From Gordius albopunctatus (Eukaryota): a stretch of DNA of 64,000 bases. The notes under the pieces were generated by a model, which saw only the letters and a list, made by a program, of their open reading frames with translations, searched no databases and was not told the DNA's origin. The position numbers and the translations under genes are program-made. Positions 21,501-24,500 of the stretch are shown here, piece by piece (within the stretch, counting starts at the first letter, position 1; each line of letters starts with the position of its first letter). The stretch spans positions 7,006,001 to 7,070,000 of the forward strand of contig OZ193909.1 of the NCBI GenBank assembly GCA_964276515.1, read 5' to 3'.

Positions 21501-24500
21501 TTTTTCTGAAAATTGTTCTAAAATCTAGCTATAAACGTAGAGTGATATTCAAAATCGTAATAATCAAGCGATTTACTTGCAATCGTAGGAAGTGTTGTGC
21601 GAAGGGTTCCATTCTAACCATATAGGAAGCGACTATCATTGCAGATGAATAACAGGTTCCGTAATGATAAGGCGGTGTATCGCCATGAGGATCATCCCAT
21701 TCTATAAAACGCTTTTTGAATTGGTAGAGTCGGTCGGGCGTTTGGGCACCCATAGGTTTGGATAAATCCCTGAACACTGAAGGGTCATTTAGATCTAAAC
21801 TCTATATAACAACATTAAAAGTTAAATCGAATTGTTTTTATTGATATGCTTTTATTAGATAAAAATGATCAATAAACTAGATGACAAACGAGCATAAAAT
21901 AAGATAAATAAAAAATTGTTCATCAGATTCGTCGAGAGCCAACAAGGGTCATGTGTCAGATTAAGATTTATAATTATATTTCGCTATTAATACTCCCATT
22001 TTTAGATGTATAATAAAGCTAGGTGAGTATTTGGCTTTGGAGGATCTCTTTCCTATACGCCAATGCTTTTTTTGCCAATGTGGCGAAATAGAGAGCTACT
22101 ATTTAGAATGAGCAAAATCATTTTTATACGTTGCTATTTAAAATTAGAAACAAACAAGCAAGCATTTCCCATAATTCAACCGTCGATAAGACAAAACCCA
22201 AACAATCGTTATAAATAAAATGAAAAATTCAAATCAATTTATAATTATACTAATATAATAGCCTAAAACCTAAGAGGAAAATTAAGAATAAATTATCACA
22301 AGACATTCAAAATTTCATTTTGCAATCATGAGAGGTTATTGTGAAATAAGCAAAAAGTTAAGTATTGACCGTGTAAGCATGTCCAATATAGGCAGGCTTA
22401 CGTCAGAATTATAGTCTGAAAGAATCCACGGAAATATGGGGTATTGCATGAGATCGTTGTAGGAGCGGCCGGCAAGGGTGTTTAGGTACATGAGATACTG
22501 GAAATTTGTTATTTCCCCTTTCTATCAATCGATAAAAACGCGTATATTCAATTCATCATGATATCACATGATAATAAACCCCCCAGAAAATCACAATATG
22601 TTAATAAGGTTGCAGGAGTTGAGAGCTAATAATTGTAAAGCAACTTAATATAGCATTTAGCATTATTTTCAGGGTAAATCCTAACAACAAAAACATTAGT
22701 GAGAGATCGACTAAATTTGAGAAAATCATATCTTCAATGTAAAAAAATATCACAATGTTTACCACCCAACGGTCTGTAACCGATTTTTCGCCGATCAAAG
22801 AATTTAAAATAGCCCCAGTGGAAGAAGAGAATGAGGAGGGTTCAACGTTGGCATTACGCCTTTGCCCAGATACAGAATCTTTCACGTTATCAGTAATGCC
22901 TTTAGCCAAAGTTAAGAACCTAATTGTATGAATAAAATATAGTTTTTAGTAAACATAGTTGAAAAATCAACAAGGATTAGCCTTAAAAGTGGCCCTTTTA
23001 CTAAATTTAGTGGATTTAAAAATTAAAATTTTTCAGAACATTTACATTGATGATAGATGTTATCGCAAAGTTTAGTGCAATTTTCCCTTTGAAACGTAGT
23101 TATCCCACAAATATATGTTAATAAATGAGTATAAACTAGATAAGGTGTAGCCACCAAGATTCTCGCAAATAATAAAGCATTGTAAGGACTTGTTATAAAA
23201 TAATATCTAATCATTCATATTATTTCCATTGTTAATTGGAAATCCGCACCAATCTTTAGGACATCTGAAATACAACTTAAAGTACTGTTAAGTATTATAA
23301 CAAGAAATCCATAAAAATTGTTTTGAGTGATAAGACATACCGATTAAAAACTTTATCGCGCGTCGTTTTGGGGAAGACTAGGAGGTAATTACGCCCGTCT
23401 TCCGAAAAAATTTCTAAACCGATCGGCTGGAGCAGATATCGGCGTTTGAGGACTTCTTTAATGTCTTGGTAGGAAAACTTGTGACACCTGATAAATAAAA
23501 AAATTGAATTTAAAGTTAATTATTCAAAATTAAAAAGGTGATTATGGTTCTGTTTCCAGTAAAAAAATAAGTTTGTGACTTAAGACCCTAAGCTGCTTAA
23601 ATAAAGCAGAAACATATTGTGCTTGATTATGGAATTTCATAAAGCTTCACGTGCTCTAAGACCCCTCTAAATTAAATACTGGCTACGCCCATAGCATCAT
23701 AATTAAACAAAATAACTGGTCTACTCAAAAATATTCGTTTAACTTGTTATAAAAAAAAATTTTTATCGCAAAGTTATTATTACGTTTAATTGATATTCCA
23801 AAACTAGTCATAAGCCTAAACGCATTTTTAACACTCACTCTTTCTTCGCTTCGTGATTTATGGGGCTGAAGGGTATAACAGGGTCGTGAAAGTGGGGTGG
23901 TAGGGTGTGTATGTCTCTGATTTCGCGACTTTTTAACAGGGTAAACCCGTCTACGATGTAGTAATTGTAATTTCCGAACAGGAGTAACCCTTCGAACGTA
24001 TCTAAGCCATGAACCCTGGCGCAACGGAACATCGATTTGATCTAAAACCGGGCAAGCCCAAAAGGAAAACGTTTTAATTCAATCTATTTTGAGAGTAGTG
24101 AGCCTTTTGCAATAATGAATATAATAGTATTTTGATGATAACACTACCTACGACGGTCCCAAGTCCGTGTGCAAAAAGTGGAGGGTTGGCGTCAGGTCGG
24201 AAACCGGCTATAAAAATCAACTCCAAAACTATGATAGTTTCAAACAGGATTTTACAAGAAAAGGATAGGGCGTCCTCCACAAACGACGCGCACTGCATAC
24301 CCCGCCCGTGCAATGTGAAAAATACACTAGGGTTACTGCCCAACTCACAACGAAGGCGGTTAAGGAAACTAGTTGTGGAAAGATGCGAATTACGTGCTGG
24401 AATGTGGGAACGTTGACGGGGAAAAGCATCGAGGTCGCACAGATGCTAAAAAGAAGAAAGGTACACATCGCTTGCCTACAAGAGACGAGGTGGAACGGAA

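What the first reader, a model, noticed from the sequence alone, without database searches (positions are those of the whole stretch)
24131..24196. Twister ribozyme whose cleavage site defines the 5' end of the RTE retrotransposon
Seen in sequence: the first ~57 nt of the RTE read (U)AACACUACCUACGACGGUCCCAAGUCCGUGUGCAAAAAGUGGAGGGUUGGCG. This aligns to the type-P1 twister core, using the rice Osa-1-4 sequence as I recall it (UAACACUGCCAAUGCCGGUCCCAAGCCCGGAUAAAAGUGGAGGG). P2 (CACU 24142-45 / AGUG 24177-80), the CCC/GGG pseudoknot and the putative general-base G24181 are intact. Two core differences are compensatory: P4 CCGG/CCGG becomes ACGG/CCGU, and the second pseudoknot GC/GC becomes AC/GU. 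The left TSD ends at 24140, at the U|A scissile bond. Established: twisters cleave at U|A, and twisters at RTE 5' ends have been reported in Schistosoma. Inference: this RTE family is cut out of host read-through transcripts by self-cleavage and may need no promoter of its own; it may be undescribed in this lineage. The ribozyme is antisense to WDFY3, so it should not cut the host pre-mRNA.
Basis: partly seen in the sequence, partly recalled or inferred. Interest (0 to 1): 0.9.

Follow-up and report, generated by a model that had tools for sequence, protein, structure and literature searches.

The report
Twister ribozyme heads an RTE retrotransposon
A jumping gene inside an intron of an animal gene begins exactly at the cut site of a twister-type RNA fold, which likely cuts the element's RNA free from longer host transcripts; the trick is already published for a blood-fluke element, so this is a further example, with a predicted second RNA fold just behind it.

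Summary
Confirmed. Window 24135-24189 matches Rfam twister-P1 (39.2 bits, E 4.5e-7; below the 67.2 gathering score). It is a P3-less twister, identical to rice Osa-1-4 at 35 of 42 positions; in published Osa-1-4 data both two-sided changes stay active (0.89, 0.94). The predicted scissile bond, T24139|A24140, is the 5' junction of a 3.07-kb RTE LINE with a 14-15-nt target duplication. In 4 of 4 runs laid, 63-76 contigs leave the element at 24140 into unrelated AT-rich flanks, with no shared upstream extension. Of 19 RTE relatives with enough upstream sequence, 7 carry a whole twister and 4 its 3' half. Cleavage and lack of a promoter are untested. This copy has a broken ORF and lies antisense to WDFY3. 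The mechanism is published for Schistosoma Perere-3 (PMC8501958) and stated for RTEs generally (PMC7761336); this scan noted it six times on other DNA. New here: the family, in an unplaced animal, and a covarying stem with a possible pseudoknot directly behind the ribozyme. New member of a known kind.

The parts
24126..24139 (+). Left target-site duplication (14 nt; 15 nt if A24140 is counted). Its last bases supply the 5' strand of P1 and the base before the cut.
   Evidence: Only two occurrences in the window, 24126 and 27214; 15-nt maximal match
24139..24140 (+). Predicted scissile bond U|A; A24140 is the first base of the element and the predicted general acid (Osa-1-4 A7)
   Evidence: Rfam alignment; loose ends before 24140 in 76, 63, 71 and 75 contigs; role of A7 from PMC6154101
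24140..24189 (+). Type-P1 twister core without P3: P2, T2, lone pair 24148-24152, P4, T1, G24181 (Osa-1-4 G45), 3' strand of P1
   Evidence: position labels of Osa-1-4, non-canonical pairs
24188..24224 (+). Predicted second RNA element: stem 24188-90 with 24207-09, GG 24195-96 with CC 24204-05, A-run, and possible pseudoknot 24199-201 with 24222-24 (only 3 pairs in this copy)
   Evidence: Covariation over 15 RTE 5' ends
24383..27182 (+). Broken RTE ORF (AP-endonuclease and reverse transcriptase): three frame changes near 24696, 26003 and 26570-26628, stops at 26291 and 27036. An upstream ATG lies at 24231; the start codon is not settled.
   Evidence: Pfam Exo_endo_phos and RVT_1; tblastn of intact relative P0002; length differences against other copies (table 4); ATGs
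27205..27213 (+). Short AAG-type 3' tail (AAG AAG ATG)
   Evidence: Sequence; loose ends behind 27211 in 83, 91, 86 and 95 contigs begin AGAAGA
27214..27227 (+). Right target-site duplication
23841..24041 (-). WDFY3 exon next to the insertion; its splice acceptor lies about 98 nt from the element's 5' end. The element is intronic and antisense to WDFY3.
   Evidence: tblastn with named WDFY3 proteins; homologue search

Best explanation
This RTE retrotransposon begins at the cut site of a type-P1 twister fold, which likely self-cleaves so that the element's RNA is released from a longer upstream transcript and each new full-length copy starts at the same adenine. Shown: the fold, its place at the 5' junction of many copies, the target duplication and the same fold at the head of related RTEs. 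Inferred steps: (1) a copy is transcribed from upstream, most likely by host read-through; (2) G24181 and A24140 catalyse cleavage, leaving a 5'-OH AACAC end, while the base before the cut and the 5' strand of P1 come from whatever host site the copy sits in; (3) the uncapped RNA is translated, probably helped by the folded ribozyme and the stem behind it; (4) target-primed reverse transcription copies it to its 5' end, so the new target duplication abuts the cut site. This particular copy is a dead passenger: its ORF is broken, and being antisense it would not cut WDFY3 pre-mRNA.
For: Rfam twister-P1 hit. All core pairs, the lone pair and the three non-canonical contacts of Osa-1-4 are kept. 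The seven differences from Osa-1-4 are tolerated in published data: G13A/C31U 0.89 (G13A alone 0.17), C20A/G35U 0.94, A16U 0.97, U18C 0.96, A36G 1.03 (read by counting columns). In 4 of 4 runs laid, 63-76 contigs have loose, mutually unlike AT-rich sequence before 24140 (agreement 0.45-0.48), and depth falls to flank level upstream. Twister at the head of relatives: 7 whole and 4 partial of 19, all sense, the whole ones 255-410 nt before the endonuclease motif. Over 7 sequences 90 of 91 cells pair and 7 of 13 pairs change on both sides. Same anatomy, with cleavage shown, in Perere-3 (PMC8501958).
Against: No cleavage or transcript was observed. Score below Rfam's gathering score. The seven changes together, and the 3-nt insertion at 24171-73, are not covered by the published matrix. 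Without pseudoknots, 24130-24195 is predicted to misfold: A24140 pairs with U24187 at 0.97 and P2 forms at 0.01, although the 121-nt centroid and the post-cleavage piece form P2 and P4. P1 here is A-U plus two wobbles. 8 of 19 relatives have no Rfam twister, 5 of them no trace of the head. One search showed only 24 of 11,051 loose-end rows, so the share of 5' ends at 24140 is unknown. I could not see how the ribozyme varies between copies, so the two compensatory changes are not shown to be family-wide.
Confidence: 0.8

Rival explanations
1. The ribozyme cleaves, but the element is not promoterless: an internal promoter starts transcription a little upstream, in the flank, and the twister trims that leader.
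For: It predicts the same 5' junction. It would explain how a family that inserts in many unlike sites stays abundant in two organisms. Internal promoters are common in non-LTR elements (PMC8501958 introduction).
Against: HDV-headed RTEs are described as lacking their own promoters (PMC6765202), and Perere-3 is described as transcribed from host promoters. The leader is short, 91 nt to the first ATG, and mostly filled by RNA structure.
Confidence: 0.25
2. The 5' end is set by a transcription start at A24140; the twister is an inactive relic or serves only as a folded structure.
For: Three relatives (L016, L036, L069) keep the downstream element with at most a remnant of the twister, and five have none, so RTEs can do without it. 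This copy may misfold.
Against: The boundary falls on the exact catalytic adenine. Both changes in paired core positions are compensatory and active in Osa-1-4, whereas G13A alone is nearly dead. The catalytic and non-canonical positions are all kept.
Confidence: 0.08
3. A chance look-alike at the edge of a repeat.
For: Score below the gathering score; no folding stability above shuffles.
Against: E 4.8e-5 over the whole window and all families; the same fold heads RTE relatives whose proteins are at most about 40% identical.
Confidence: 0.01

Closest known systems
T-variant twister ribozymes at the 5' end of Perere-3 (RTE clade), Schistosoma mansoni (Liu et al. 2021, PMC8501958; read parts 1 and 3-7 of 9, supplement searched by terms)
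   Same: Type-P1 twister at the head of an APE-RT single-ORF RTE; target duplication directly before the AA at the cut; host-derived P1 strand; unlike insertion sites; short 3' repeats.
   Different: The published examples have P3, P2 CUCC/GGAG and T2 GC/GC; this one has no P3, P2 CACU/AGUG and T2 AC/GU, a core not found in that supplement by three short terms. The tail is AAG, not GTAA. The host falls outside the schistosome-cestode clade. Perere-3 protein was not in my tree, so the relation of the two elements is untested. Cleavage was shown there, not here.
Osa-1-4 twister of rice (Kobori and Yokobayashi 2016, PMC5113685; whole main text, supplement passages)
   Same: P3-less type-P1 architecture; 35 of 42 positions from A7 to G48 identical, by hand mapping on the labels.
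   Different: Seven substitutions, a 3-nt insertion in L2 and a weak host-supplied P1. I did not examine the genomic context of Osa-1-4.
Truncated twisters at the 5' end of RTE-superfamily elements (one sentence, 'Martin and de la Pena, in preparation', in PMC7761336; passages read)
   Same: The general claim that my survey supports.
   Different: No data are given there, and searches found no follow-up paper in the library.
HDV-like ribozymes heading R2, L1Tc, baggins and some RTE elements (review PMC6765202; passages)
   Same: A 5' self-cleaving RNA releases the element from a co-transcript and may aid cap-independent translation.
   Different: A different ribozyme class; Rfam found no HDV-like match in this element.

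Membership tests
Twister ribozyme, type P1 | P2 and P4 helices | tested here: met
   4 of 4 Watson-Crick pairs each; covariation among relatives
Twister ribozyme, type P1 | Two pseudoknots T1 and T2 | tested here: met
   T1 three C-G pairs; T2 A-U and C-G; the A-U swap is active in Osa-1-4 at 0.89
Twister ribozyme, type P1 | Catalytic A after the cut, general-base G, and contacts A8-G45, A28-A46, U24-A29, C15-G19 | tested here: met
   A24140, G24181, A24141/G24181, A24161/A24182, U24157/A24162, C24148/G24152
Twister ribozyme, type P1 | P1 stem | tested here: inconclusive
   3 of 4 positions pair, two as wobbles; P1 is reported as not essential and T-variants allow four mismatches
Twister ribozyme, type P1 | Site-specific self-cleavage | not testable with these tools
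   Needs a bench assay
Rfam RF03160 as curated (a score cut-off, not a feature of the class) | Score of at least 67.2 bits | tested here: not met
   39.2 bits; the model holds P3, which is absent here; none of the 8 hits in relatives reaches it either (best 65.8)
RTE-clade non-LTR retrotransposon | AP-endonuclease followed by reverse transcriptase in one long ORF | tested here: met
   Pfam hits; collinear over residues 25-968 of a 969-aa relative, broken in this copy
RTE-clade non-LTR retrotransposon | Target duplication, short 3' microsatellite tail, many dispersed copies | tested here: met
   empty site in organism B (records 18 and 25)
RTE-clade non-LTR retrotransposon | Placement among named reference RTE elements in a reverse-transcriptase tree | tested here: inconclusive
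   Quick tree on 445 aa puts it on a long branch among plant, catfish, moth and nematode relatives; no named reference element and no outgroup were included. The clade name rests on architecture and on my recall of these relatives.
Perere-3 type twister-headed RTE (works like) | Target duplication directly before the AA of the cut site, in many copies with unlike flanks | tested here: met
Perere-3 type twister-headed RTE (works like) | Co-transcription with upstream host sequence, and translation after cleavage | not testable with these tools
   Needs RNA data and reporters
Perere-3 family itself | Close protein identity to Perere-3 | not tested
   No Perere-3 protein was returned or 41 (best hit 43% identity, unnamed); not filed as a member

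The most novel reading that the evidence does not exclude
The head of these RTEs is a two-part RNA module: a twister that hardly needs P1, followed by a conserved stem and H-type pseudoknot that takes up part of the P1 3' strand. The module is shared across plant-like and animal RTE branches, and the second part persists where the twister has decayed. It would then be the element that recruits ribosomes or the RTE protein to the uncapped RNA, and many genomic twisters of plants and animals would simply be RTE heads.
Probability: 0.35. Interest if true: 0.62.

Novelty: new member of a known kind. Interest (0 to 1): 0.36.

Why it matters
It extends a mechanism shown for one schistosome element to a distant RTE family in another animal group, with base-exact junction evidence from dozens of insertion sites, and supports the unpublished statement that twister heads are general in RTEs. 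The ribozyme is a natural double-compensatory version of the best-studied twister. The covarying element behind it gives a concrete, testable candidate for how a cap-less retrotransposon RNA is translated or recognised, a step that is still open.

Tried and rejected
No whole genome is held, so copies could not be aligned directly. A single-protein scan of metagenome contigs found no relative; the alignment scan did. No RNA holder listed among 12 runs; this is no evidence on expression. Summed contig depth (0.57-4.0 million in the element, under 900 in all flank bins but one) is not a copy number and is not used as one. A sigma-70 promoter scan is irrelevant to an animal and was dropped. Thermodynamic folding gave no signal above shuffles. 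No second copy of the element in the window; no other ribozyme inside it. Target duplications in metagenome loci could not be confirmed: 7-8-nt candidates only, L012 plausible but off by one base, L017 not at the element's end. Host placement: WDFY3 exons give an animal on a long branch, outside the schistosome-cestode, nematode, rotifer and vertebrate clades, with no supported sister group (0.285). The careful RTE tree did not finish; only the quick tree is used. Look-ups of this scan by place and by sequence returned nothing.

Full report
Observation. The sequence at 24140 reads AACACTACCTACGACGGTCCCAAGTCCGTGTGCAAAAAGTGGAGGG, preceded by T24139. Rfam's twister-P1 model matches 24135-24189 on the + strand over all 68 model positions, 39.2 bits, E 4.5e-7 on 601 nt and 4.8e-5 on the whole window. 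This is below the gathering score of 67.2; the model holds a P3 helix that this RNA lacks. The scissile bond is T24139|A24140. A 14-nt sequence occurs only at 24126 and 27214 and extends by one A on both sides, so the target duplication ends at the cut or one base after it.

Is the core compatible with activity? The supplement of Kobori and Yokobayashi (PMC5113685) labels each position of Osa-1-4. Mapped by hand, 35 of 42 positions from A7 to G48 are identical; there are seven substitutions and a 3-nt insertion in L2. Relative activities, read by counting columns in the extracted rows: G13A/C31U 0.89 against 0.17 for G13A alone, C20A/G35U 0.94, A16U 0.97, U18C 0.96 (both together 0.87), A36G 1.03. 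The general acid and base (A7, G45; PMC6154101), the lone pair and the three non-canonical pairs (PMC7026644) are kept. The combination of all changes and the insertion are untested. G45A alone keeps 0.52 in that 2-hour end-point assay, so G24181A is a poor null control. Against activity of this copy: folding without pseudoknots is no better than shuffles, and for 24130-24195 it favours a structure in which the target duplication and the cut site pair with 24185-24194 (A24140-U24187 0.97, P2 0.01). The 121-nt centroid and the 47-nt post-cleavage piece do form P2 and P4.

The element. 24140-27213 is 43% G+C and encodes an AP-endonuclease and a reverse transcriptase, collinear with residues 25-968 of a 969-aa relative but broken by three frame changes and two stops. 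Other copies also differ in length at 24382 and carry about 20 more bases at 27148. The tail is AAG AAG ATG. It sits in a WDFY3 intron, antisense, about 98 nt from a splice acceptor; no ribozyme was found on the WDFY3 strand. Best protein identity to anything found is 43%. A quick tree of 50 rows (7 of 23 chosen loci left out for short alignment) places it on a long branch among plant, catfish, moth and nematode relatives, without a supported sister. The host is an animal of unresolved lineage, outside the schistosome-cestode clade.

Do other copies start there? No genome is held. Of 12 runs that hold the stretch, four were laid: two of organism A, two of organism B, two studies. In 4 of 4, contigs have loose sequence before place 24140: 76, 63, 71 and 75, AT-rich and mutually unlike (agreement 0.45-0.48). 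At the other end 83, 91, 86 and 95 contigs run on behind 27211. The other listed loose-end places are internal and element-like (agreement 0.6-1.0). Depth drops to flank level in the bin before the element. So the family starts at the catalytic adenine and has no shared upstream extension. Limits: 24 of 11,051 loose-end rows were shown; X1 and X3 were saturated; contigs with T before the cut match this copy further and are counted elsewhere, and among the rest the majority base is A, a context that cleaves in PMC8501958. In organism B, records 18 and 25 join the two flanks with a gap that fits an empty site, so this insertion is likely younger than the split, while the family is abundant in both. 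In run X2 a contig reaches 24 nt into the element from the left flank, short of the tool's 31-nt bar for bridging.

Relatives. 23 hold the start of the endonuclease and 19 of them at least 350 nt upstream. Rfam was run on 33 of the 80 and my own model, built from 7 of these heads, on all 80. Of the 19: seven have a whole twister (L001, L002, L003, L012, L013, L017, L023; 48-66 bits), four its 3' part (L004, L010, L065 at a contig start, L063 truncated), three only the downstream element with at most a remnant (L016, L036, L069) and five nothing (L018, L024, L032, L043, L079). All are sense; the whole ones lie 255-410 nt before the endonuclease motif, 258 in the window. Over seven aligned heads (L023 left out because it misaligned), 90 of 91 cells pair and 7 of 13 pairs change on both sides. 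The base before the cut is U, C, G or A, and P1 pairs fully in only 1 of 8, as expected if that strand is host-derived. Twister-bearing loci lie on at least three branches of the tree.

A second element. Directly behind the core, 15 heads share a 3-pair stem that changes on both sides at all three pairs (97.8% of cells paired), an invariant GG/CC pair of pairs, and an A-run. Its 5' strand overlaps the 3' strand of P1 at 24188-24189. The loop can pair with bases beyond the A-run (73% of cells; 4 of 5 pairs change on both sides). Own loop with own downstream sequence scores 173, against 151 +/- 9 for permuted partners (29 of 5000 as high) and 124 +/- 7 for shuffled letters (0 of 2000). The structure and the windows were chosen after seeing the alignment and the sequences are related, so this is a lead. 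In the window only three pairs of the pseudoknot form. Searches listed no paper on it; the library lacks most subscription papers.

Mechanism. Most likely (0.8) the family is transcribed from upstream, the twister cuts at its own first base, and full-length reverse transcription places each new target duplication against the cut. The fold and the junctions are shown; cleavage, the 5'-OH end, the source of transcription and cap-independent translation are inferred from Perere-3 (PMC8501958) and from HDV-headed elements (PMC6765202). Whether the element has a promoter of its own is open (rival, 0.25). This copy is not a source: it is broken and antisense to its host gene.

Known or new. The arrangement is published with experiments for Perere-3, and stated in one sentence for RTEs generally (PMC7761336). 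This scan noted twister-headed short RTE derivatives six times on other DNA; I reached my reading before looking and did not test those notes. PMC6007223 (abstract) and PMC5850137 (passages) were seen for RTE background only; PMC9901934 only as a listing. New here are the family, its P3-less double-compensatory ribozyme, whose core was not found by three short terms in the Perere-3 supplement (line breaks there can hide matches), and the predicted element behind it. Verdict: real, new member of a known kind, interest 0.36.

Noticed in passing
window 24188-24224; L001, L002, L003, L004, L010, L012, L013, L016, L017, L023, L036, L063, L065, L069: Conserved covarying stem with a possible H-type pseudoknot right behind the twister in RTE 5' leaders; kept in three loci whose twister has decayed.
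   Followed up: partly
L016:260-338, L036:225-325, L069:150-312: RTE relatives (L016 groups with catfish elements) with only a remnant of the twister; L036 and L069 share a different upstream motif that Rfam does not name. It could be another 5' processing RNA.
   Followed up: no
L023:659-861: A plant snoRNA (Z102/R77, 81 bits) ends 39 nt before the twister on the same strand: a possible case of an RTE placed for read-through from a snoRNA transcript. This twister has AU in place of AA at the cut.
   Followed up: no
window 23663-24090 and 27479-28500, runs X3 and X5: Organism B lacks the insertion at this site but holds the same family with the same 5' junction.
   Followed up: partly
window 23552-23735: Depth 50-150 times the flank level in all four runs: a short repeat in the neighbouring WDFY3 intron.
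   Followed up: no
window 8811-9456: Tandem, hairpin-rich G/C-run repeat that draws several weak microRNA-family matches.
   Followed up: no
window 938-2342 (-): Two ORFs that look like gag and protease fragments of a Ty3/gypsy-type element (named from recalled motifs, not scanned).
   Followed up: no
L018, L024, L032, L079: RTE relatives with long T-rich upstream sequence and no twister or downstream element; L018, L024 and L032 form one clade among plant-like elements, suggesting loss of the head in that branch.
   Followed up: no
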